DNA of 64,000 bases from Minutocellus sp. GHC0000111 (taxonomy: Eukaryota): positions 558,001 to 622,000 of the forward strand of contig OZ361257.1 of the NCBI GenBank assembly GCA_977018835.1. The letters run 5' to 3'. Both the position numbers and the translations under genes were made by a program. The notes under the pieces are model-generated. The model was not told the DNA's origin. It worked only from the letters and a program-made list of their open reading frames with translations, and did not search any database. Below, in pieces: positions 8,329 through 52,412 of this stretch. Each line of letters begins with the position of its first letter. The first letter of the stretch is position 1.

Positions 8329-8429
8329 ACATTAATTTTCTTAGTGCGAATGCACCAACGTCTTTTAGACCACGATTCTGTCGGCCCAAATAGGGAGACA
8401 CGGCTCCAAGCGCTAACGCGGTTTGACCT
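8329..8429. repeat. Dispersed ~95-bp repeat, copy 1
   Basis: Core 8336-8413 is identical to 29636-29714 apart from a 1-bp indel. Confidence 0.9.
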
Positions 8430-12600: not shown

Positions 12601-14183
12601 AGTCCCACGCCTCCCCCGGAGATGTTGAGCCAAGTCACCACTACAACCACGACAGAGGCTGGAACTGATGCCGAAAGTCCTTCCTTCGCCCAGGGACCCG
12701 ATACTACTACTACTACTGATGAAACCACATACGACCGCCCTGTTGAAATTGCTGATTTCTTTGACGAAGAAGAGCGACGTCTATCTGACGAGGTGCAAGA
12801 GACCGAAGGCCCCTTGCCGCCGGATCGTCCTCAGCCAGCTCAGGGTCTTGATACCGAAACTACCACTGACACCGAGGGACCTTCGTTTGCTCAGGGAGGC
12901 GACACTACGACTTCTACCACCGACACCACTGAATCTCGGAGACTACCTATGCCAATGATCTTCCCATCGAGATCTTTGAGCCTGCACCGCCGGCGCCGCA
13001 GCCTGCTCCTCCACCGCAGGATGGACCAAACTTCGCCCAGGGTGCTGGGCCGCCCCCGGCACCAGCCCCTGGACCTGCGCCTGGCCCAGCTCCTGGTGGT
13101 CCGGTCGTCACTACGCAGCAGGTGAGCCCAGGCACCGGGGGATATCCGCAGTATGCACCGAATGCTCCTCTCCCTCCCCCTCCCGAAGGGTACCCGCAGT
13201 ATGCTCCGAACTACGGCGGCTACGGCATGTATCCCGGTGGCTACCCTCAGATGCCTATGTATCCTCAATATCCTCAGTACGCCCCCGTGACGCCGACTCA
13301 GCCCGTCGCTCCTGTCACAACCACTCCTGAGGCCACTACAACTCCTGTGGTCACCACCACTCCCGTCGCAGTGGGCGGTGCAGGCAACCCTGTGGTCATG
13401 CACCACAACATGGAGTTCATCGGTGACTGTCTGAAGGATACATGCATCGCCGATGAAAACGACCATTTCAAGGGCCACTCCCACGAAGACAATGCCATCT
13501 ACGAGATTTTCTACACCAATCCCGTAAAATGCTGTGGAGTCGTGATGGAGATCGGAGCTGGAGATGGACTCGACGGATCAGTTAGTCATTTTTTCGAAGA
13601 AGGATTGAATTGGAAGAGCATTCTCGTCGAGGCCAATCCCGACAAATTCAAGGAGCTCAAGAAGAATCGTCCCGACGCTACCGCTATCAACGCTGGCTTC
13701 TGCGAATCTGGTTCAATGAAGTTCGATGGTGAATTCCACCCCGAGGATCCCGACGAGATTATTTCTGAAGCGGTGTCCACACAACCCTTTAGCGAGGATG
13801 CTAGCGAGGATGTCATGTGCCTTAGCATGAACCCTCTGATTCGCCAAAATCTCAAGGTGACCCATATCGATGTGATGGTCATTCATGTCGACGGAGATCC
13901 TCTTGCCGTCATCCGAAAGATGGACTGGACCGTCCGAGTTGACATTTGGATCATCGTCATGGACAAAAAGACCGAAGAGATGGAAGAAAGGAACAAGGTC
14001 GTCAAATCCGTTCTCGACCGAAACGAATACGTCGAAGCTGAGTGGGACATTAAGCGCTGGTGCGATGAGAGCAACAAGGGACAATGCGAAAACAATACTA
14101 TTTTTTTACGCAAGAACTTCAATCCTTTGTACTTGCAGCGATCACTCAAGGGCAAAAAGCAGTTGCGCGGCAACAGCAAGTGA
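9656..14183 (+). CDS. Large type II membrane protein with Pro/Thr-rich repeats and a C-terminal FkbM-family methyltransferase; intron 12165-12254; two apparent frameshifts (~12272, ~12945)
   Basis: TM segment WAIPASIVLAVLLFLAIYLGL, then WxxPAGxPTP repeats. C-terminal VMEIGAGDGLDGSVSHFFEEGLNWKSILVEANP...IDVMVIHVDG is typical of FkbM/Methyltransf_21. Confidence 0.8.
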
Positions 14184-14223
14184 ACCACCTTGGTCGCTGA
14201 TTAGATATTTTACATAATAATGA

Positions 14224-14243
14224 TAACATTAGAATAGAACTAC
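14224..14243. repeat. Inverted repeat A (partner 15484-15503)
   Basis: TAACATTAGAATAGAACTAC is the exact reverse complement of 15484-15503. Confidence 0.95.
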
Positions 14244-14486
14244 ACGCGCAATTTTTTCGAGTTTTTTTCAAGTCACTTTACCACGCGCAAAACAATTTTG
14301 ACTGATTATTTTATTATCGGTTTCATAGGAGGTCAGACGTTCGGGCATTTGTATTTGTATTACCCTACTGTCACGGGAGAGATTTACACCTCTGAGAATT
14401 TTTGGAATGGAAAACTCAGGCCAACTGGAGAACATTCTGCTGGCTCGCGGTATTTTTGGTAAGAGCAAAGATATATATACTGTATA

Positions 14487-14512
14487 CTCCTGCAACAGGA
14501 TCAAGTATGTTC
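14487..14512. repeat. Inverted repeat B (partner 15862-15887)
   Basis: CTCCTGCAACAGGATCAAGTATGTTC is the exact reverse complement of 15862-15887. Confidence 0.97.
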
Positions 14513-15421
14513 CGACCCACCTCCTCTGAAAATCAACGTTGTGAGGCTCCTCGAGTCCCCACGCCTCGTCGAGGCCACACACTTGTCGTGGTCGGTGATT
14601 CCACCTACCTCTTCGGAGGGTACGGCCGAGCCTGTGTCTGCGGTGGGGCGGAAGGATGTACCTATGGGAATTTCTATCTGAATGATTTATGGCATTTCGA
14701 TGAAGCTGCCCACTCATTCACCATGCTTCGAGAAGCTTCTTTCGGCGAAGATGGCAACTGGCCTTCCGGCAGAGAACTGCATAGCGCAACATCCATGAAT
14801 GACAGAGGCGGTTTTGTCGTTATTGGGGGCAAGGGCGCCAATGGACAAGTCTTTGATGATGTTTGGGAGATATCTGTTGGGAGCACCGTAACGCAGACGA
14901 TCCTTTCAGACCGAGAAGAGGTTCTCATCGATGGTGCCTTTACAAAGGGAGCTTTGACATTTGATGCAGATGAAGACCGCTGTATCGAATCGATCGACGT
15001 TGAGTTATCTCTGCAGCATCCTTGTTTCGAGCAGATCGGAAAGATATAACTTCTGTCCATCAGCGACAACGGCATGTACTTCTACAATGTCTTGGAAGAG
15101 TCTTGGGCTCCTCTGGCTATTGGCAGAGGCACTTCAGAAAACCCACTGGCCCGAGATTCAGCGGCCTACTCCTTTCTGGAAGATAGCTGTGCGATTTTGA
15201 TGCACGGTGGAGGCGCCTATGTATCATCATTCCAATACTCTGATATGTGGGCGGCCTCTTTCGATCATCTATTCAAAGTCGAGATGAAAGGCGTCGAGCA
15301 GAACCGCGCCCATGCTTGTCAGTTGATTCTGAGAAACAAAATTCCTGCTCGTAGCAGGTGGGAGGATATTGTGAAGAGAGCATGGTGCCTCGAACAGTAC
15401 CAGTCCTTTAGGTTTGCCTAG
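14487..15421 (+). pseudogene. Inverted 3' half of the FN3-Kelch gene (Kelch repeats plus P-domain-like segment), with in-frame TAA at 15047-15049
   Basis: PTPRRGHTLVVVGDSTYLFGGYG...LNDLWHFD and WPSGRELHSA...VIGG..VFDDVW are Kelch repeats. It begins with the same PATGSSMF as the end of the minus-strand half. The frame continues past the TAA to 15421. Confidence 0.85.
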
Positions 15422-15483
15422 CTAAATCTGACTCTAGCTAGACCACGAAAAAGTTAGTTCAGGCACAAGAGATAGTGTGTACG

Positions 15484-15503
15484 GTAGTTCTATTCTAATG
15501 TTA
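15484..15503. repeat. Inverted repeat A' (partner 14224-14243)
   Basis: GTAGTTCTATTCTAATGTTA. Confidence 0.95.
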
Positions 15504-15666
15504 CAATATGTAATATATCTTTGCTTGGTTGAGCTAGATCTACATGTATGTATGCTCCCAGCAGGAATGGTCTGTTCGTCGTTGGTGGTGAGATTTGACC
15601 GTTGGTCTTTGTAGCAACGATCACCTCCTAGCTAGTACCTAGCTAGGCATTCGTTGCTGATTTGTA

Positions 15667-15715
15667 ATATATATATATATTATATATGTATATATATGTA
15701 TATATATATATATAT
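15667..15715. repeat. Imperfect (TA)n microsatellite
   Basis: Directly visible in the sequence. Confidence 0.9.
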
Positions 15716-15720
15716 GTTAG

Positions 15721-15843
15721 TCCCAAAATGCGCACTGTCCCAGTTCGCGAACTGGGATCCCAGTTTGCGAACTGAGATTCATTTATCCCAGTTTGCGCAC
15801 TGGGCCCCAGTTCCCAAACTAGGATCTCAGTTTGCGCACTGAT
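15721..15843. repeat. Cluster of palindromic units, approximately CCCAGTTYGCGMACTGGG
   Basis: About 5-6 related units, including the perfect 20-bp palindrome TCCCAGTTCGCGAACTGGGA. Confidence 0.85.
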
Positions 15844-15861
15844 ACTACCAGAATGGAAACT

Positions 15862-15887
15862 GAACATACTTGATCCTGTTGCAGGAG
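15862..15887. repeat. Inverted repeat B' (partner 14487-14512)
   Basis: GAACATACTTGATCCTGTTGCAGGAG; encodes PATGSSMF on the minus strand. Confidence 0.97.
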
Positions 15888-17355
15888 CCCCCCCTTGGAC
15901 ATGGATCTGCTTCCAATAATTGACTGGAATTGCAGGAGAGACGAACTGAGCCACGGGGGTCCGTCCACTCGGGCCCACCAACCGTGCGCAGTAAGGTGTA
16001 ATAGGTACCACCTCTTTGATCGTCACCTCTGTATCTTCGGAATAAATGTGCGCTGCCGTGAGATATTCTTCCGAGCAGTTGGTCAGTGGCTCGTTACCAG
16101 AGCCCTCCCGTCCCATCGAAAGTTCTAACTCATGCTTGGATGAGAGGGGCTGAATTGAATTGCGCGGCCAGGTGAAAGTTGCACAATTGTGCTGAAGATC
16201 AATAATAACAAGCTCCAATAAACCGTCAACCCGACCCGGTGTAAACGATGGCTCAAAGAAGAGACCATTGGTTGAATGTGTTGGAAGCTTTGTCTGCCCT
16301 TGGACTGGATCGGTCCAATGTCCCTCTCCCATGGCATTGGTAGCTCGGACCCTTGCATCGTAGTACTCGTACGCGTCGAGATTATCAATAATGGCACCAA
16401 GCTCGGTCTTGTACGTTGCTTCCATGGCAGATTGAAGCCTCCGTATGAAAGGGAAACGAGAGATATGACCCCCGAGGGTGCTGTTGTGCACCTGCAGGAG
16501 TGGAAAGGGCGATAAATAGGATTCAAACTCGATCCGCCATTCAAAGATAGTTTTCGATAGCGCCGGGATTTCACTAGATGCATCCTCGACTATCCAGACT
16601 CGAGTTGGTCCAATGCCTTCAATCTCCGCAAGTGCTCGTTGGAATTCTTCTGCGGTCGCATTCCAGGCGATTGATCCGGAGATTGGATCCGAAGGAACGT
16701 CACTTGGACCGACACTGGCCCGAAGCCAAAAGAAAGCGCTGCTCATGTTTGCATTTGCATCAATGGTTGTTGACACGAGCTGAATCTCTTTCTTGCGAGG
16801 GGATTCAACCGATGATACTGGGCGAGTATCGATCCAAACGTTGTCGTTTTCATTATTTGCAATCCTATACTGGACGTTGTATGAATCAATCGGGGCTTCT
16901 TCTGCAGTTGAGTCCAAAGGCGGGGACCATTTGAGCTCAATAGAATCAGACGAGGAAGAAGCAACTCGAAGATCACCTGGTACACCTGGCGCAGATGGCA
17001 GTGTCGTGACTGCTTCACTGGACTCGCTCCAGGGAGAATATTCTCCCTCACCTGCTGTGCGGACGCGGAACCGGTATTGGGTGTTTGGCTGAAGTCCGTC
17101 AGCAGTGAGTGCGACTGCTGTTCCAGGCACCGAGGGCACAGGAGCTTGCACGTCGGTAGAGACCCATTGCCCCTTCTCGTTGTAAGTTTGCAGCTCGAAG
17201 AAAAGCAATTGTGACGAATTATCTTTTTCTAATGACTTAGCATACAGCACAAGCTGATTGGAGCCTCGGCTGGCCAGAATTGGCGCTGGAGGGCGACTCA
17301 AAGCAGACACAGTTGCGCTGAGAGTCGCTAGAAGTAGGAGCAGTAGCATCGTCAT
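15862..17355 (-). CDS. 5' half of a secreted fibronectin type III / Kelch protein, truncated by the inversion
   Basis: Signal peptide MTMLLLLLLATLSATVSA. FN3 motifs GLQPNTQYRFRVR, PGVPGDL..SIELKWSPP..IDSYNVQYR and NLDAYEYYDARVRATNAMGEG. After PATGSSMF the ORF runs into repeat DNA. Confidence 0.85.
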
Positions 17356-19229: not shown

Positions 19230-19821
19230 CGTGCTTCTTCTTATGGGCTGGTCGACGAGGTGCTCTGCTCGTATGGGCCTGTCTCCCCTTGTGCTAATGT
19301 CAAATCTCTCTGCTAGTCTATCCTTCTGCATGCATTCACAATAAAGCTCGTAATAGAGTAATGGAATGGAGCAAATTGGAAGTGCAAGGAACAATTAATT
19401 GGAAAACGCGGTACCGCGAGCTTTGATCATCGGTGGACCACCCATCAAACCTCCCGCCAGCGATGCCCGCCAGAAAGTCGACTTCAAACACGTGTTATGG
19501 GAGGGTCTCATGATAAGTGATTTTGATTTACATTCTAAGAAAAAGAAATAAAAAATGTATATAATTGTATGTATTACTTGATAAGACGTGTTGTAAATTG
19601 TGTTATTATTTCAGATGCGTTGTGCGTCAGCTCCAATGGAATTGAGGGATCTTGCACTTGGACAAGAATGGGGAACTCCTCTAAAATCATCAAGGAAAAC
19701 CGAACGCTCTTTGTCGCAAAAAAAATTCAAAAAAAATTCACGTACTGATCTGGGCACACTGCGTACATGTAGCTAGACTAGATTTACTGATACGAGTACA
19801 TCTCCCATGTGCTTATTCCTA

Positions 19822-20253
19822 GAGGAGTTGCCAAAATAAGGCGGAAGTTGAGGTGATGTTGGTTTTCGATGATGACTAAAAAAGTAAATGAAACCGGCTA
19901 GTGCTCTTGTAAATTGAAGTACTAGGTGTGGTAACTGCCTCCAAAAATCGGGAGTCGCTCATTTTGACGAGAAGGTGCCAAGCAGAGGGAAAAGAAATTT
20001 CGAGACTCCGACTCGAGCTCTGACCGAGTGACGAAACAAGGCGGCTAACAAACTACTAGTAAATGGGCTTGGTCCCGTCAAAAAATATATTGGTCCCGCC
20101 TCCCTCGAAGGGGGGCAGATGAGCGTTTTGGTAGTGGTTACCTACTAGTAGCGCTTGCTTCTACTAGCAATTACCTAGTGGCTGCAGTCAGGGTTGGCAG
20201 ATGACAAGTAGCTCCGCCTTATAAAGTGCACCGCCTTATTTTGGCAGCTCCTC
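19822..20253. mobile_element. Non-autonomous MITE with 23-bp TIRs and TA flanks (IS630/Tc1/mariner-like TSD)
   Basis: Left end TA|GAGGAGTTGCCAAAATAAGGCGG; right end CCGCCTTATTTTGGCAGCTCCTC|TA (1 mismatch). No ORF inside; an extra CCGCCTTAT subterminal copy lies near 20214. Confidence 0.85.
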
Positions 20254-20613
20254 TACGTAAGTTATAATGCGCAGCAGCGATACTCAAAGAAAAATTAGCG
20301 ACTTCCAAATCAAACAATCAGAAGACCAAGAGTTTTCATGTTTTTTTTTCTCAGGCCTCGACAAAACCAACATCATTTGACAAATTGATTCAGTTGAGAT
20401 CGTCATTCAATTCAAATTCTTGTCCTTCCGTTGCTTATTTCGTCGTCCCGACGTTCATCTGCATCGACACCGCACCAAAAAAGAACACCGGACAACGAAT
20501 ACCATGCAGGTGCACAGGTACTACACATGGAAAAATACATTTCTATGCAACATGACCCCAAAACAAGCAAGATCCACGCGTTATAAAGACCAAAAACGTA
20601 CACCCACACAGTG

Positions 20614-29627: not shown

Positions 29628-29724
29628 ACATTCATTTTTCTTAGTGCGAATGCACCAACGTCTTTTAGACCACGATTCTCGTCGGCCCAAATAGGGAGAC
29701 ACGGCTCCAAGCGCGGTTTGGCCT
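29628..29724. repeat. Dispersed ~95-bp repeat, copy 2
   Basis: Near-identical to 8329-8429, in the same orientation. Confidence 0.9.
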
Positions 29725-39157: not shown

Positions 39158-39224
39158 GCTGAAGTATGGTTCGCACCTGCTTGTTCGACCAGCTGAAGTA
39201 TGGTTCGCACCTGCTTGTTCGACC
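39158..39224. repeat. Perfect tandem duplication of a 33-bp unit (period 34)
   Basis: GCTGAAGTATGGTTCGCACCTGCTTGTTCGACC at 39158-39190 and 39192-39224. Confidence 0.95.
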
Positions 39225-43629: not shown

Positions 43630-46600
43630 CTAGATTTCGATAGCTGCAATCGCTGCGTTGAAATCTCGTCGATATGCTTCTTCGTGGACGAGGGTGTCGG
43701 CTCCGTCCGTGGCTCCCAGCGTGTCATTATTTCTTTCGATGTAATGCTTTCCTCCGCACCGAATAACTTCTAAAAACGCATTGCTCCGAGACTCCCCATC
43801 ATCCAGAGATGCGGCTGCCTGTGCAGCCATTTTGATCATTGCCTCCTTGATTCTTTCTTCGTCGGAAGCTGCTGCATAGCCACACATCATCTGAACAAGC
43901 CTTGAGGAATCCTGAGGACATAGTGTATTCACAACTGAGCATAGCCGCTGGATAGTATTGATGCATTCGTCGCTTCGATCTCCCGTGCTTTCCACGTTAT
44001 CAGCTGTTGCCTTTTGGCCGCCCTTCAAGTCCCGCATAATTAACATGGCAGTCCTCTGAACAGCTTCGTGCAAGGTTTCTTCGCCGCCGCCGAGCGCACC
44101 AATGCTGGTCACGGCGCATCTGTTCGAAGCGACAAGCTCAAGGCTTGACAATAGCGACCGAGGCAACTGCTTTTGGGACAGCTCTGAAATCAGTGAAACC
44201 AAAAATGAGCCATCGACGCCATTCTGCCTCTTATTCGAGGTATCCCGAAGACAGAGTTCGACGAGCAACAGCAAGAGTCTGCCCTTGGCGTTGTGTCCGT
44301 GATTTCTCCACAGAGCTCTTGCATACGATGAGAACGACATCGTGCTGAGATGGACAAGGTCTGAGCTTGGAATGGCCAGGCCCATTGCTTCTGCCTCCAT
44401 TGCAAGGAAGGATGCAAATGCGCATTTTTCCATGTCAACCGACTGCTCTCCGCCATACCCTTCGCTTCTTATGACAAGCTCTAGGGCCTCTTGGGGGCAC
44501 AAGATTGACGCCACCTTTGCGATGGACCTTTCCATCGTGTGAAATCATCTCCTTTGCTACCGCTGACTCCTCCATAGACATGGACATACTAGAATTGCGT
44601 TGTGAGGGAGACATTTCTGAAAGTAGAGGCATGCCACTGGCCCCTCCATCACCGGTGCTCTTTTTCGCAAAGGCGATGCCGAGTAACTCTCGAGCATGGT
44701 CGAGGACGGTGTCGCCCTTGTTGCTGCCACAAGAGGATCCTGATTTAGAGGCCTTTGAAGAGAACGTTCTATTCAGCTTGGAGCTCGTCAGCGGCGTTCT
44801 TCTGGTGGCACGAGCACGGGTAGAGGCAGACTGGGAGGTAGATTCATCATTGTCGGCGCTTGACTCTCTCTTGTGATAACCCTCCGCGTATGACATGACA
44901 AAAGCGATACGAAGGGAGACCCTAATATTCGACCGTTCCATTTCTTCGCGAGCACATCCGTCACCGGTAATGGCAGATGGTTCTTCATCGGCCACTATCA
45001 CGCCATTACCACTACTCGACGAGCTTGTTGATGATGAGGTTGCATTTGCGCTTCCGACATCATCGGACCAAACATCACCATCGGCGCCCAGATCATTCAA
45101 ATTCATCACAAAGTCCTCGGTATCGTCGCTCTCTGTGCTGATAATGTTGCGAGAAGGTGTCGATGGGGCGGACTTTTTGTCATCCGACTTATCGGTGCTG
45201 GAGGAATTCGTCTTCTTTGCCGTCGCTTCATCTTCCTTTGAAGTTGTCGTGGCTGCATCGGCATGGACTAACCATCGGCGTGCCATTTTTCGCGCAATGT
45301 CACTAACATCAACATGTGAGTGGCCATCGGCAAGGCTTGAAATCGCCTTATGCACGGATACTGCAACTTGCCGAAAATCATCCATCGTGAAATAAGTGGA
45401 ATCAGTCACTACGGCCTCCGAAGTCATTATAGACGCCTCACGAAGGAGTCTTTCAACGAATTCTTCCGGTGAGATCAGGTCGCTACCCGTACGATTCTCT
45501 TGGACTTGATCGACAAGACCTGACAGAATCGACCGAACGTGGCTGGAAACACCCAACGCTTGGGAATGTCCGCGAGAGCAGATTTCATTTCACCGATTCT
45601 CTTGACGGCATCCAACGCAAACCGCTCGCTCTTGGCATACGAGCCCACGCCCTTGTGCGCTCGTGCTTTCTGCTCTGCCTCGCTAGACGCCCTCATGGCA
45701 TGCGACAAGGCTAATTCCAGGCATTCAAGGCGATCTTTGGACCCGTCAGGATACTTCAGTGCGCACCACTCGGCCAATTCAGCAGCATCACGAGATCCCT
45801 TGACGCGATTGATTATCGGCCGGACGCTGCTATCAAAGGGAGGAAGCGAGGTACCAATCGACATGGCCTTCTTGATCCGCAAGTGCAACGACCTTGCGTG
45901 GATGTATCCAGCCGGAAGACCCAACGAAAAGCACAATGGCGACAGAGCGGCCACAGATGATGCGCCACCATCAGCAGAAAGGATTGGCAGTAAAGGCTGG
46001 ATAGGATCAAAGTCGTCTCGAGAAGAAGACGCCGATTCGTGTCCTAGAACGCCGCAGTAGGTTACGGCGGGCTTGTCCGCATCGCTCTTGAAAGGGGTTG
46101 GAAGAGGAGTAAACAGCTTAGGAAAGGGTGGTCTCTCTTGCATAGGACGATCCTGGAAGTAGGACAAGAGGATAAGAAGAGCGTCTTGTCTTCTATCGAT
46201 GCACTCGTATTCTCTCTGGAAAGCTGCAAAATCAGACTTGTTGGACTTGTCGGCGAGAACAAGAGCCAGTTCGTTGAGGTATAGTGATACGACGAAAGAT
46301 TACCGCTCGTAATCTCGAAAGCACTTCTCCTTCGTTTCGAGCGAAATTAGACAACGCCTCAAAATTGCTGCGCGTGCCATTGATGAGGGAAGAAGGAGAA
46401 GAGTGTCCTTCGCGGCTCTCTCGCAGACCCTGAGGTCGCCACGAACATCGTAGAATCCAGGCGATGATGATGGTCGCTGCGTAGTGTCGCTTTTGTCGGC
46501 GTATCCCTCCGGCAACGAAAGCAAAAATTCAACGTGTTTTTGCGCTGCAAGCTCATCATCAAGGCCATAGGAGCTAACGAATCTCGTTGCGAGACTAAGG

Positions 46601-49600
46601 ACCTGATCGAGCGCTGCCGAGGCAGTAAGAAGGGTTTTTGAAGCACCTGCAATCAACGGAAGAACCAAAGAGGCGACGTAGGAATCGACTTCGGCCTTCT
46701 CCTTTCCGTCGAATCTCCTGGGATCGAATGTCACTCCGAAAGTTTGCAAAACACCCCACCAGCGAGCATTTGACGAGAGGCGACGGCATTGATCTACAAA
46801 GATATCCTGCTTCTTCCAAGCAACGACCTCGCGAATGGCAGAGTCCTTGAGAACTTGGGAAGAACCATCTCCGGCTCTGACGCCAATTGTCGCGAGAGTT
46901 GCAACTCTTGCAAAATCTCTCTTGCTAATGGCAGACGGAAGGCAAGCTCTGTAGACCTGTGAATTGCAAAGCGTTTTCGGCAAAGCAAGCAGTGAGACTT
47001 TAAGACAATCGATACGAAAATAAATAAGGAAGAAAGTGTTGCTCCCTCACAAAAACACTTACCTTGAATGCCGTTTTAATTGGCAAAGTGAAAAGATACG
47101 CCAAGGCAAGTTCAGAGTCGATGCTTCCACTTGTGATGCCGCTTCCGCTACCCCCGAGGCTTCGCTCAACAAGATATTTGCTTTCGTTGGAGATGCCACC
47201 ATCACCTAGTATCGAATTGTCAACATCAAAGGGAGAAATATCGTGGTTTGAGACAAGCTCAATTGCCGACGCGGATGCGCGGAGCCTCAGGGCAATGGTA
47301 TGTGCACCGCGATCATTCAAAAAGTCGTAGATTCTATCATCTTCAATCGTAGAGCCATTGGTGGACAGAATAAGGGCCATGAATTTTTTGCAGTAGACCA
47401 TACACAGCTGCAGCGACTCCAAGGGAGGAAGCAAAAGACCATCTCCAACATACCAGTCGCTGTGAAGTGGCGGGGTAATCGGCAATGCTTCTCTTCCTTT
47501 TCTGCTACCTTCCCCATCCGCAAAGGCCTCTGACTGATCAAGACATGGAACAGTTTCTCGCCGTTTTGAGAATTCTTGATCCAGTCCAACGCGGAAAGTT
47601 TCCATTGACTCGCCACTTCCACCATCGCCCCTGGTAAGAACTTGGCTAATTGTATCGGCAAGGCCCGTGAGGGAAACAAGCGGACCGAGCAACCTTCGGG
47701 AACAAAATCGCAGAGCGTGATCTTCAAGGACAGAGGAGGCACGGATTATGCATCTCATGGCTAAAAGAATGGATTCGTGGGACATTTTCTCGTCCTTGGG
47801 CTCAGACAAAAAGTCATCTGCACGATGCAACGGATCTGTGGCTTGAGACGATGCTTCCTTGGAGGCCCGGACACAATGGGCGGTGGCAACGGAATAGATT
47901 GTATCGAATGCAGCATCGGTAGACAGCTCGTCAAGAAGTCCCGATGCGACGAGGAAAGCGATACTCGCAGAATCATCTGACGAGTTCATAGCAAGATATG
48001 TTGCTTGATTTCCAACTGCCTTGCACCAAAGAATTGATGCGTCTTGGTAATTGCCAGCAAAGAGAAGGCTAATACCCCGCCTGGCACATGAGAGGGACTC
48101 CTCCAGCTCGCTACTATCGGCGTTGGCTTCCTTGCCCTCCAGTAACTCAACAGCGGGCCGCAAAAGGAGACGACAAACTTCTTCTTGAATCTTCTCGCTC
48201 TCGAGGTCTGATAGGCTGAGGTATATGCTGAAGGTACTTTGTAGCTCATGGATGGACTGAAATTTTTGCAAAAGTGCCGACCAGCTTGAGGTTCCCAAAG
48301 ACAGCATTGTCTTCGAAGCGTCTGCCTTGTGGACACGGCCGAGTTTGGATGCATTCTCCTGCATGACAGAGAGAATGCCAATAGCAGCTCTTGCGGCAGC
48401 CTTTCCTTCCTTTTGCTTTAGCTGCTTTGCCGTCGATGATGCTTCTCCCATCATGGGAGAGCAATCTTGCACCGCCTCGGATAGGTACATGCAGGTTTCC
48501 ACTCCGACCTCCTCGGCAAGAATGGGATCCTTTGTGTAAAGATAGCGGAGGAGTGAGGCACACTGGTCCGCGCGGAAGGCTTTTTCATCGGCATTGCTCT
48601 CGGGAGAGGCAGAGAGCGCCATGCGACGAAGGATCAAAACGCAGGCATCGGCCTTTGATAGATGTGTGAAGGCATCGCACAATGCGAGGGCATCCTGAAT
48701 GGTCGATGATCCGTCGATATGCCGGCAAACGAAGTGCAAGAGGCGGAGACCATGGTAGGGATCTGCAACACGAAAGAGCTCCTGAGCACCATTGCCACAA
48801 TATCGGCGGACAATTCTATCCACGGCAAGGAGCCTTGTTGCCTCTTCCAATTCAGATCTCATTTCATCATCAATGGCCCACTCGATGGCCTCTCTGGAGA
48901 GATTGGACAACGCCGGAGGTTGCTCGGTGCAAAGAATTGCCGCACGAAGCACTTTCAGCGCCACTTCACATCTCGCGGAGCCGGTGCATAGCCGGGCCAA
49001 CGATGCGGCTTCGAGCAAGACTCTTGCATTGTTTCGGTTGCTATCGCAAAGATCCTTGGTGTACATTGAAAGAACAACGTTGAAATCCGTCTTCGCAGCT
49101 TCACAGAAAGGCTTAACACGATCCATAATTTGTGCCTCCCTGTCAGCATCATTGGAAACCTTGGACGAAATCATCCGAACCAATTCCTTTGCAATAAATG
49201 AGGATCCTCCTCGTTCATCATAGAGCCGAAGGGTTACGATTCGCTGGGGCAGTCCTGCATCGCGGGCGTTTCTCAAAGAAACAGCATGACCGAGCTTGAC
49301 TTCTACTTCTTCAGCCTCCATGTCCTTGTCCTCGAACTGCCGATATAATTTCACCGCTTTTGCATCGCATGCACTGTAGTTGTTGAAACAATGATCGCCA
49401 ATAGACGAAGAAGGATCTGATGTAGAGCCTTTGTTTGTACCCGTGCCACGCTGAACTCTGCGCGCCATGAAAGATGCTGTCCCTCTCTGGCGCGGAGCAC
49501 CGCCCCGAAGAACGCCTAGTTGCATTACCGAGGGAGGTGGCGGCTTACCAAACAAAGGCTTTGTGCTCTGGTTCTCGTCTTGATAGTACGAGGTAGAACT

Positions 49601-52412
49601 ATTCAAGGATGAACTCGTATCATTGAGAGCACGTGAATCGTTCACGGATTGATTAGTATCAGCTGTGGGTCCCGATGAAATAAAAGAAGTGTGCATCGAC
49701 GTAGATAGATTTGCAGTTGCATCAGCGACAGTCTTCATTGCATGAGGTAGAAAAAGAATCATGTAAGAAATGATCATCACGTGAATAATGAATGGAAATC
49801 AGTATCAGATCAAAGAAGAAAGCCAACACATACCTTCAAGAGCGTAATGGCAGAATCAAGCCCCAACCCTCCTTTCTCGCCAACATCGTCAAAGGCATCG
49901 GCAAGACGACATGCCCGGTATCGGATTGCAGCAAGGAGGGGGTGGTTAATCGAAAGGCCGGGAATGATTGACTTCTCCAACCAAGAACAATAGGAACGAG
50001 GATCGACAGTAGCTGGGAGGCCATCAATTGCACTGGCCATATGCTCTGGTGTGATGCTCTGCGAAAATTCCGACCGACGAACCATCTCTGCAGCAACCCA
50101 TGAGCCCTCAAGAACCAGAGAACGAAAGACATCGGCAGGAGAAGCGGCATTTGCTAGCATTGGGCTGACAACTACGCGGTCCTCGTCTGCACCAGAAGCA
50201 GCATGCTCCACACACCGAATGGCCAACACTTTCGAATCAAGTCGTGACTTCTCAGCACGAAGGGAAGGGAGATGAGCCGGCGGCGTAGCCTTCATCGCAC
50301 CAGAGACTGTCGCAGCCATTGCCGACACCGTAATGCGGTAGTCTCGAGCAAGGATTTCCTCCGAAGCACCGTTCGATAGCATCGCCGAAGGCCAACCGAG
50401 AAGAACGTTGGACGCGCTCAAGAGACATTTGACACCGCGATCCCCTCCCGTGACCGCCCCAGATGAGAGTCGACGCAAACACTCTTTCGCTTCGGTCATA
50501 TTTTCCGCCGACGTAACGTTGCCGCCATCGATAATGTGCTTAAAGCGCTGCAAGGCAACCTCGGACCCATGTATCGTTCCATACTCTCCCTTGGTGGCAC
50601 TGGATGCGCCCACCGAAGCCAGCAGGGCATCCGCTTCGTCGTAATTTCCTTTTGCGAGGAAACGACGGAACCTCCCTACAACGTCGCCGGTGTCTCCACA
50701 GAATGTCATACATTCACCGATGCCGGAATTGTAGGAGACCTTGTAGTGAAACGAATAGTGTCTTGCATCTTTGCTGTTGGCATTGCTGATGCCATTTCCT
50801 AAATTCGCCAATGCCACGTCGATCCAACGAATCTCGTGATCCAGCTGCGGGACAATGGGCACCTTGAATACAACGCAGGGATCACCGACACAATTCATGA
50901 CGGTCTGGACGACGACAATACATCCGTTGGCATCAGAAGCAAACGACTTGAACGCAATTGCTGCAGCCGCTACATCACTTTCGCAGCTAGGAATCGGTGC
51001 CATGGCGTAAAGCTTGGGCTGGTTGGCCTCCAAAATGTATTCCGCATTCAATGTCAAGTTGGATTCAGCGAAGTAGCAAATCTTGGCCGATGAGTTTTGA
51101 ACAGCCGACAATAAGAAGAGGCCGTGAGTACCATCGACGCAAATACCAACGGACTCATCCACACTCCAGCTCCCCCCACCGTCTTTAAGGGACGCATTGA
51201 TAGATGAAGATTCGTTGACGAGGATTGCCTTCTTGCTCTTGGTATCGTAATCATGAGCTGACAACCCACCAGCTCCATCCAGTGCCAGGAATCGCACTGT
51301 GCGATCACCGACGAAGCACCCACCGAGCGATACTACGTGAGACTTATCCTCGCCCACCTCATTGACCATGATGCAGCGATTCTCATCCTCATCATTCGAT
51401 ACCGCCGAGGAGGATGGAAGTGGCGGGGGGATCGACATTTTGCCAGCAGCCGCGGCCATCTCGGCAGCGTCCGAGCTGTTGAGACGAGTCCCATCGATGC
51501 CAGAAACCAAAATGATGTTGATGTAGGGAACCTCGGAACTGCTGATCCCACCAGTGCCTTTTGTGCTGGCAGTTGGGCCAATGGGATTGCCAAATTCGTC
51601 ACACTCGGATTCCGAGGCCGATGTCTCCTCCCTTGGCGGCACCAGGATGGCAAGGATATCACCTCCAGCATTGGTATATTTCTCACCACCCGACACAAAG
51701 GCAATCTCGGCTGGAAGCATGGACGACATTTCTTCGTCTGCAGAAATAAAAACTGGAAGAATCCGTGAAGAAATGATAAATGCGGCGGGGATTAGGAATC
51801 ATCATCATCAGAGATTTTCATGAGAACAATAAAAACACACAAGAGATATGCATTCCTCCACAGCACTAGCCACGTACTTTCTCCCCAACATACATGCATA
51901 TAGCAACACTCACCCTCTTCGTCCTCATCACCCACGGCGTAGACTCGTCTAGTGGCCAGGACCTTGCCATCGCTGCCCCGCAGTAACGACACGGTGCCCC
52001 CCGCCGTCGAGGCGACGACTACCGATCCATCGGCATTGGACGTCACGCGGCACACCCGATGGTCGAAGGTGGCCTCCCAAGCGATCCAGTCTTGATCACT
52101 GCCGAAGCCATCTTCCTGGTTGTCGTCACTGTTGTTATTGCGCCGAATGCCAACGACCGAACAGCCATGGGAGATGGCATGGGGCGAAACCGAACAGGAA
52201 CGCCGGGCGTCGGCCGACAGTGCCGACTCGGCGTCGAAGTTGAACCTGGCGTCGTTGGCGACCGTGGCGTCCCAACCCCCGGCATTGCTGCGGGTGCTCC
52301 GACTGCTCCCGACGCTGGTGGTGCTGTCGGGATTTGGGAGGGGGAGGGAGCGGAGGATCGGTCCCTGGCCCGACGAGGGGGAGAGGGGTGGAGACGATGA
52401 TGATGATTCCAT
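43630..52412 (-). CDS. KNTC1: Rod/KNTC1-like kinetochore RZZ subunit; introns 51913-51738, 49833-49733, 47062-46957; in-frame TAA 46302-46300; frameshifts ~45556 and ~44540
   Basis: About 2.7 kaa, with a beta-rich N-terminus followed by alpha-helical sequence. CRRLSSNARWWGVLQTFGVTF and DYE motifs resemble the Rod C-terminal region as I recall it. Canonical splice sites join the ORFs. Confidence 0.65.

What the first reader, a model, noticed from the sequence alone, without database searches (positions are those of the whole stretch)
14487..17355. Gene split by an internal inversion: flipping the segment between 26-bp inverted repeats rebuilds an FN3-Kelch ORF
Seen: the minus-strand ORF (signal peptide plus FN3 domains) reads ...YWKQIHVQGGA-PATGSSMF and then runs into repeat DNA. 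A plus-strand ORF 1.35 kb away reads PATGSSMF-RPTSSENQRCEAPRVPTPRRGHTLVVVGDSTYLFGG (Kelch). The shared 26 bp (14487-14512 / 15862-15887) is a perfect inverted repeat in the same codon phase. Inverting 14513-15861 therefore gives a seamless in-frame W...PxPRxGH Kelch junction. Inference: this is either a reversible, intragenic, invertron-like ON/OFF switch of a secreted protein (known in bacteria, unusual in an alga) or a fixed inversion that knocked the gene out. No recombinase gene is visible in the window.
Basis: partly seen in the sequence, partly recalled or inferred. Interest (0 to 1): 0.9.

Follow-up and report, generated by a model that had tools for sequence, protein, structure and literature searches.

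The report
One-off inversion in a dead gene
A 1.35-kb piece of a gene from a probable diatom lies flipped between two perfect 26-letter repeats, but the flipped piece also lacks 549 letters and the unflipped, undeleted form found in the same sample is broken too, so this is likely a DNA-break repair scar in a decaying gene, not an on/off switch.

Summary
In detail: a perfect 26-bp inverted repeat (14487-14512 / 15862-15887), and flipping 14513-15861 joins FN3 to Kelch in frame as in two intact orthologues. The switch reading does not hold. The flipped product stops after 676 of about 983 residues, because the segment lacks 549 nt (most of a P-domain and over one Kelch repeat) with TAA at the join. 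Contigs of run X1 hold both forms at about half depth each: the window's left junction and deletion, and an unflipped, undeleted form. That second form is also dead: a 47-nt frameshift, a nonsense codon and an 8-nt frameshift. A relative (X12) is unflipped, undeleted and shows no outer repeat copy. The right break cuts a palindromic high-copy repeat at a 2-bp microhomology. Best reading: a heterozygous, one-time inversion whose staggered break duplicated 26 coding bases, in a gene decaying on both haplotypes. Not shown: the right junction in reads, long-range phase, and absence of rare back-flips.

The parts
15862..17355 (-). 5' half of the gene: hydrophobic N-terminus and three FN3 stretches, 498 codons. 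As it stands the frame runs on through repeat DNA to a stop at 15643-15645 (570 aa, the last 72 from repeat DNA).
15862..15887 (-). Native copy of the 26-bp sequence; ordinary coding sequence between the last FN3 and the first Kelch motif
14487..14512 (+). Extra, inverted copy of the 26 bp at the left breakpoint (inferred to be a breakpoint duplication)
   Evidence: junction held by contigs of X1, X2 and X5; X12 has no cover of the flank 14440-14476 and joins this point to FN3
14513..15861 (.). Inverted segment (1349 nt): 3' half of the gene, its 3' UTR and repeat DNA
14513..15046 (+). Two Kelch-type repeats and the first residues of a proprotein-convertase P-domain
15044..15049 (+). Deletion junction: 6 nt where the intact gene has 555 (net loss 549 nt, P0166 residues 368-551); creates TAA at 15047-15049
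15050..15421 (+). Last Kelch-like repeat, C-terminus and the natural stop; cut off by the TAA
15553..15863 (.). High-copy repeat DNA: an (AT)25 tract at 15667-15715 and palindromic 20-bp units. Other copies continue differently after 15863, so the right break cuts the repeat; 2 bases (15862-15863) fit both sides.
14258..14433 (.). High-copy repeat in the left flank
   Evidence: depth table and pieces
14688..14688 (+). Site of a nonsense variant (Leu to stop, codon 557) in the non-window form; seen in X1, X5 and X9
17024..17031 (-). 8 nt missing in the non-window form (X2 and X5; bubble in X1); shifts the frame at codon 109, stop at codon 111
16038..16059 (-). Probable 22-nt loss in a near-identical allele, read from protein P0016 only; not seen in the contigs laid
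14203..14243 (.). One copy of an older 37-41-bp duplication (partner 15484-15520), shared with relative X12 and so older than the inversion
12933..14183 (+). Neighbouring gene end with an FkbM methyltransferase domain; a second contig path leaves the window's sequence near 13908-13930

Best explanation
The segment 14513-15861 is inverted and carries a 549-nt deletion in one of two forms of an FN3-Kelch-P-domain gene present in the sample, and it was likely flipped once by end-joining after two DNA breaks, in a gene that is likely dead on both haplotypes. Steps: (1, shown) the ancestral gene is contiguous, with the 26 bp present as coding sequence. (2, inferred) One break was staggered by about 26 nt inside the gene; the other fell in palindromic, AT-rich repeat DNA behind its 3' UTR. 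(3, inferred) Fill-in of the overhangs and end-joining in the flipped orientation left the 26 bp at both junctions as a perfect inverted repeat: the repeat is the product of the inversion, not its cause. (4, shown) The flipped piece lacks 183 codons and has a stop at the join, so turning it back gives a 676-residue stump. (5, lesions shown, phase inferred) The unflipped, undeleted form has a 47-nt frameshift, a nonsense codon and an 8-nt frameshift. The two orientations are then two inherited alleles of a pseudogene. The order of inversion and deletion is not known.
For: Two orthologues are contiguous across the point. Deletion and stop: window 6 nt against 555 nt in P0166, and 555 nt inferred for X12 from two contigs assumed to overlap by 30. 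In X1 the left-junction contig has depth 60.7, the deletion junction 60 and the undeleted path 48.9, against 98-115 for shared pieces; the same halving is computed from one depth bin for X2 (43-46 of 78-97) and X5 (about 7 of 12.5-14.3). The undeleted path spans 508 nt, out of frame, in both X1 record 5 and protein P0171 from a 1.58-Mb contig. P0171 starts at the first Met after the nonsense site, which fits both lesions lying on one allele. The 8-nt loss is in X2 and X5 and in proteins P0016 and P0024. X9, another sample, has the nonsense variant and the undeleted join. X12 bridges the unflipped junction (49 and 48 letters on the two sides) and does not cover the left flank. The 26 bp are not conserved: P0166 has an extra codon in them. 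The right-hand repeat is cut at a 2-bp microhomology and folds far better than shuffles (z = -8.7). [quoted passage not shown]
Against: The window's right junction (15861/15862) was seen in 0 of 4 runs laid over it, and the FN3 contigs of X1 and X2 run only into the unflipped junction (736 pieces and 136 loose ends were not shown). Its existence rests on the window and on depth (114.6 + 60.7 = 175 against 110 for the Kelch piece), and the tool warns that contig depth is no copy number. The same graph cleaning would hide a rare back-flipped junction. The unflipped junction in X1 and X2 has only 4 letters beyond the repeat, short of the tool's 31-letter rule. Contigs give no phase. X1, X2, X5 and X9 may be the window's source or one campaign. 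26 bp is shorter than the shortest duplication (46 bp) in PMC1885836. Template switching would leave the same footprint. The 26-mer holds a 5-bp inner inverted repeat.
Confidence: 0.85

Rival explanations
1. Reversible inverton: the segment flips between the 26-bp repeats, by a recombinase or by homology-directed repair, and toggles a secreted protein.
For: Perfect in-phase repeat; both orientations are present in one run; contigs cannot exclude rare junctions.
Against: The flipped product is cut at residue 676. The reciprocal junction is in 0 of 6 records laid for X1, and X2 and X5 contigs pass through the left repeat unbroken; this is weak, because the window's own right junction is missing too. 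The outer copy is not seen in X12 and the sequence varies in orthologues. No recombinase, integrase or transposase family in 47 window ORFs; the whole genome could not be searched. The unflipped form is itself broken.
Confidence: 0.03
2. Same one-off lesion, but made by replication template switching at the palindromic repeat rather than by staggered breaks with end-joining. This changes the mechanism only.
For: Hairpin-prone repeat at one break; short microhomology at the right junction; an 11-nt palindrome ends exactly at the left junction (weak in AT-rich DNA).
Against: No templated insert from elsewhere was identified at either junction; the simple staggered-break geometry accounts for the arrangement.
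Confidence: 0.2
3. The right junction is an assembly error or a haplotype mosaic, and the real event is an inverted duplication or translocation of the Kelch half.
For: The right junction was seen in 0 of 4 runs and lies in a very high-copy repeat.
Against: The left junction is in contigs of three runs and begins exactly at the 26 bp where the FN3 half ends in the window. Depth of the Kelch piece fits two copies, not three. P0170, from a 3.03-Mb contig, begins at the Met inside the repeat and ends at the same stop.
Confidence: 0.06
4. The two forms are two co-occurring strains rather than two haplotypes of one diploid. The gene is dead in both all the same.
For: The holders are host or metagenome samples; the ploidy was not tested.
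Against: A near 1:1 split in three samples is easier for a heterozygote.
Confidence: 0.07

Closest known systems
Inversions with inverted duplications from staggered breaks (Drosophila melanogaster group; PMC1885836, passages read)
   Same: Ancestrally unique coding sequence is present in inverted orientation at both breakpoints; only one of the two breakpoints is duplicated, as the paper reports for 12 inversions; fill-in and end-joining explain it.
   Different: Much smaller: a 1.35-kb segment and a 26-bp duplicate (shortest in the paper 46 bp, median 321 bp). It is polymorphic within a sample, and it cuts a gene that is also broken on the other allele.
Bacterial intragenic invertons (PMC10028968, passages read)
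   Same: A short inverted repeat with one arm in a coding frame; inversion changes the reading frame; both orientations occur in a sample.
   Different: There inversion is reversible and attributed to invertases. Here neither orientation gives a whole protein, the outer arm is not seen in a relative, no reciprocal junction was seen, and no recombinase was found in the window.
Eukaryotic flip/flop inversions: Ogataea polymorpha mating-type switching (10.1101/2025.09.09.675088) and the Saccharomyces 24-kb flip/flop region (PMC9731477); search listing and start of abstract only
   Same: A eukaryotic chromosome segment found in two orientations; in Ogataea by recombination between inverted repeats.
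   Different: These flip whole genes and are kept across strains or species. That their repeats are far longer than 26 bp is recalled, not from a call. Here the break is inside a gene and is seen in one lineage only.
Rearrangement and haplotype diversity in clonal diatoms (10.1101/2020.11.08.373134, passages read)
   Same: Haplotype-specific deletions and rearrangements arise in vegetatively growing diploid diatoms.
   Different: The text has no occurrence of 'inversion'; that the window is a diatom was not tested here.

Membership tests
Inverton (reversible, recombinase-driven inversion) | Segment flanked by an inverted repeat | tested here: met
   26 of 26 complementary
Inverton (reversible, recombinase-driven inversion) | All four junctions present in one clone, including outer arm followed by the other end of the segment | tested here: inconclusive
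   Reciprocal junction in 0 of 6 X1 records; X2 and X5 contigs unbroken through the left arm. Contigs also lack the window's own right junction, so absence is weak.
Inverton (reversible, recombinase-driven inversion) | At least one orientation gives a functional product | tested here: not met
   Flipped frame stops at 676 of about 983 residues and lacks 183 codons
Inverton (reversible, recombinase-driven inversion) | Both arms kept in relatives | tested here: not met
   One relative at DNA level: X12 joins the point to FN3 and has no cover of 14440-14476. P0166 has an extra codon within the repeat.
Inverton (reversible, recombinase-driven inversion) | A site-specific recombinase is encoded | tested here: inconclusive
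   None among 47 window ORFs by Pfam at E <= 1e-4; no genome held
Staggered-break inversion with inverted duplication | Duplicated sequence is single-copy in the ancestral arrangement | tested here: met
   Coding sequence of a contiguous gene in P0001, P0166 and X12; outer copy not seen in X12
Staggered-break inversion with inverted duplication | Copies lie inverted exactly at the two breakpoints | tested here: met
   Homology to the orthologues switches strand exactly at the two arms
Staggered-break inversion with inverted duplication | End-joining signature at the second break | tested here: inconclusive
   Repeat cut with a 2-bp microhomology; the ancestral intergenic sequence was not recovered
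Pseudogene on both haplotypes | Frame-breaking lesions on each allele | tested here: met
   Window: inversion, 549-nt loss with stop. Other form: 47-nt frameshift in X1 record 5 and P0171, nonsense at 14688, 8-nt loss. Phase of the last two is inferred.
Pseudogene on both haplotypes | No full-length transcript | tested here: inconclusive
   One RNA run (X6) laid 0 contigs on 14440-15540; the tool says this is no proof of absence

The most novel reading that the evidence does not exclude
The 26-bp repeat left by the break now lets the segment flip back and forth in living cells, a newborn eukaryotic intragenic inverton that toggles between two truncated secreted proteins (a 570-residue FN3 form and a 676-residue FN3 plus half-propeller form). 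Contigs cannot exclude rare flips.
Probability: 0.03. Interest if true: 0.75.

Novelty: new member of a known kind. Interest (0 to 1): 0.18.

Why it matters
As a switch it would have been a short-repeat intragenic inverton in a eukaryote. The evidence makes it an ordinary rearrangement in a dead gene. Two smaller points remain. It is a clean caution for inverton scans: a perfect in-phase inverted repeat and both orientations in one sample can come from a single break in a heterozygote. And the locus has at least five separate lesions over two 3-kb alleles that differ by only 8 listed coding SNPs, with a second probably broken gene in the window; if genome-wide, that would point to deletion-led gene decay in a sponge-associated microalga (my estimate about 0.25; not tested).

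Tried and rejected
No whole genome was held, so recombinases, paralogues and other lesions outside the window are untested. The missing 195-residue stretch of P0001 has no match elsewhere in the window (best E 0.06, a Kelch self-match), so a second inversion or moved piece inside the window was rejected. An intron at 15044-15049 was rejected: sequence is lost there, and undeleted forms exist in DNA contigs. Recombination between pre-existing repeats was rejected: chance about 5e-7 and no outer copy seen in X12. A transposon end with target duplication was judged unlikely: other repeat copies run on past 15863 in the rows shown, and 26 bp is longer than usual DNA-transposon duplications (recalled). 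The metagenome scan with P0166 gave 47 pattern matches and 0 relatives. The representatives search gave 2 near-identical fragments among 150 rows, the rest FN3-repeat proteins. Atlas hits for P0166 were all under 0.9 and gave no function; a second Atlas query for taxonomy could not be run. The cluster look-up of P0001 gave no organism. RNA run X6 laid nothing: no evidence either way. P0024's two extra 1-nt shifts may be read errors and were not counted. X12-versus-window changes were 24 of 38 non-synonymous (38 of 73 rows; adjacent changes counted singly; neutral 76%): not decisive. Earlier-findings look-ups by place and by sequence were empty. A paper search for diatom + haplotype + inversion + heterozygous + pseudogene gave 3 papers, none on this by title or abstract start. 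No supplements were opened.

Full report
Observation. The arms at 14487-14512 and 15862-15887 are a perfect 26-bp inverted repeat, the longest of 9 exact inverted pairs of 16 nt or more in the window, with a chance expectation near 5e-7. The minus-strand frame from 17355 has three FN3 stretches and the plus-strand frame from 14489 has Kelch motifs. Flipping 14513-15861 in silico joins them in frame. Two orthologues confirm the join: P0001, a complete 981-residue transcript, and P0166, 82-89% identical; both align to the FN3 half up to the repeat and to the Kelch half from the repeat on. The 26 bp are ordinary coding sequence, and P0166 has an extra codon in them.

The rebuilt frame stops after 676 residues of about 983. 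Where P0166 has 185 codons (555 nt), the window has 6 nt ending in TAA at 15047-15049, a net loss of 549 nt. By Pfam on P0166 this removes most of the P-domain (348-462) and a Kelch repeat (489-529). The lost piece is not elsewhere in the window. No orientation of this allele can make the protein.

Sequencing runs. 24 runs were listed, 20 holding some of the stretch; I laid 6, all as assembled contigs. The left junction is in 3 of 6 (X1, X2, X5); X12 covers the gene but not this flank, X9 does not reach the place and X6 laid nothing. In X1 the FN3 contig runs through the 26 bp into the Kelch half, and its loose end before 14487 is the FN3 end; X2's FN3 contig likewise has 4 letters beyond the repeat. 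These have only 4 letters past the repeat, the most a 31-letter graph gives, and fall short of the tool's bridging rule. X12, a relative with 13-32 differences per contig of 180-745 nt, bridges the unflipped junction with 49 and 48 letters. At the deletion X1 holds both the deleted join (63 nt, depth 60) and an undeleted path (565 nt, depth 48.9); the left-junction contig has depth 60.7 and shared pieces 98-115. One depth bin gives the same halving for X2 and X5. X12 and X9 show undeleted sequence before 15049. The tool warns that contig depth is no copy number, and X1, X2, X5 and X9 may be the source sample or one campaign.

The other form is dead too. X1's undeleted path spans 508 nt between codon boundaries, 47 short of the intact 555 and out of frame. 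Protein P0171, from a 1.58-Mb contig, shows the same thing independently of my arithmetic: identical to the window for 108 residues, in frame through most of the P-domain, then shifted, ending in another frame of 15049-15183 at a spacing of exactly 508 nt. A T-to-G change at 14688 makes a stop at codon 557 in X1, X5 and X9, and P0171 begins at the next Met. An 8-nt loss at 17024-17031 (X2, X5; P0016, P0024) would stop the frame at codon 111. P0016 suggests a further 22-nt loss not seen in the contigs. Of 8 within-sample coding SNPs shown, 6 change the protein; the 4 that X12 marks as derived on the non-window side all do (small numbers, 76% expected if neutral). That these lesions share one haplotype is inferred from two forms at about 1:1 and from their absence in the window.

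Breakpoints. The right break lies in repeat DNA of very high copy; in all 4 runs other copies continue differently after 15863, with 2 bases fitting both sides. The stretch holds an (AT)25 tract and palindromic 20-bp units and folds with z = -8.7 against 200 shuffles. I infer a break-prone site. The arrangement (FN3, 26 bp, flipped segment, inverted 26 bp, flank) is what one staggered break in the gene plus one break in the repeat gives after fill-in and end-joining. PMC1885836 describes this mechanism, and duplication at one breakpoint only, for Drosophila inversions (passages); its shortest duplicate is 46 bp. Template switching remains possible.

Against this reading. The window's right junction was seen in 0 of 4 runs, with the tables cut. 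I take it as removed by graph cleaning next to a huge repeat, since FN3 depth plus left-path depth (175) exceeds Kelch depth (110) in X1. The same cleaning would hide a back-flipped junction, so its absence from 6 of 6 X1 records is weak. No raw reads were available. No recombinase family was found in 47 window ORFs (46 of the 84 stop-to-stop frames of 150 aa or more, plus one; most frames left out overlap others), but the genome was not held.

Comparison and verdict. It resembles a bacterial intragenic inverton (PMC10028968, passages) in outline only: it fails the tests of a functional orientation and of arms kept in a relative. It meets the testable features of a staggered-break inversion. 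Haplotype-specific rearrangement is reported for clonal diatoms (10.1101/2020.11.08.373134, passages). Three earlier AI notes on other genomes came after my reading was fixed and were not checked: two describe one-off inversion scars, one a case where relatives keep the repeats in both orientations, which this locus does not show. Verdict: a real inversion, most likely a one-time repair scar on one haplotype of a gene decaying on both; new member of a known kind; interest 0.18. The open lead is whether such decay is genome-wide.

Noticed in passing
window 43633-52412, minus strand: A long gene with weak KNTC1 ARM-repeat hits (E 4e-5 and 0.057, both below the Pfam cut-off) looks broken: an in-frame TAA at 46300-46302 with coding signal in the same frame on both sides, and frame changes near 45500-45600 and 44500 with no clear intron. 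No homologue or reads were compared.
   Followed up: partly
window 13878-13930: In X1 and X2 a second contig path leaves the FkbM-domain gene about 50 nt after 13878, and depth stays at half up to the Kelch piece: the other haplotype may have lost or interrupted this gene's 3' end.
   Followed up: partly
window 14203-14243 and 15484-15520: A 37-41-bp duplication, direct in the ancestral orientation, brackets the repeat cluster between the two convergent genes; it is shared with X12, so older than the inversion.
   Followed up: partly
window 15699-15863: A palindromic 20-bp-unit repeat with summed contig depth of 25,000-83,000 in X1, X2 and X5 but about 800 in relative X12 for bin 15699-15845: possibly a recently expanded satellite or element.
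   Followed up: no
window 19820-19844 and 20231-20255: A 25-nt inverted repeat (96%) 386 nt apart in non-coding DNA, MITE-like.
   Followed up: no
window 39158-39224: A perfect 33-nt direct repeat with period 34, a tandem duplication near the start of a long minus-strand frame.
   Followed up: no
window 8336-8413 and 29636-29714: A dispersed repeat of about 78 nt, two copies differing by one inserted base.
   Followed up: no
proteins P0001 and P0166: The intact protein (FN3 x3, Kelch repeats with a proprotein-convertase P-domain set between them) has few relatives: 2 orthologues among 5 hits. Its function is not known from these calls.
   Followed up: partly
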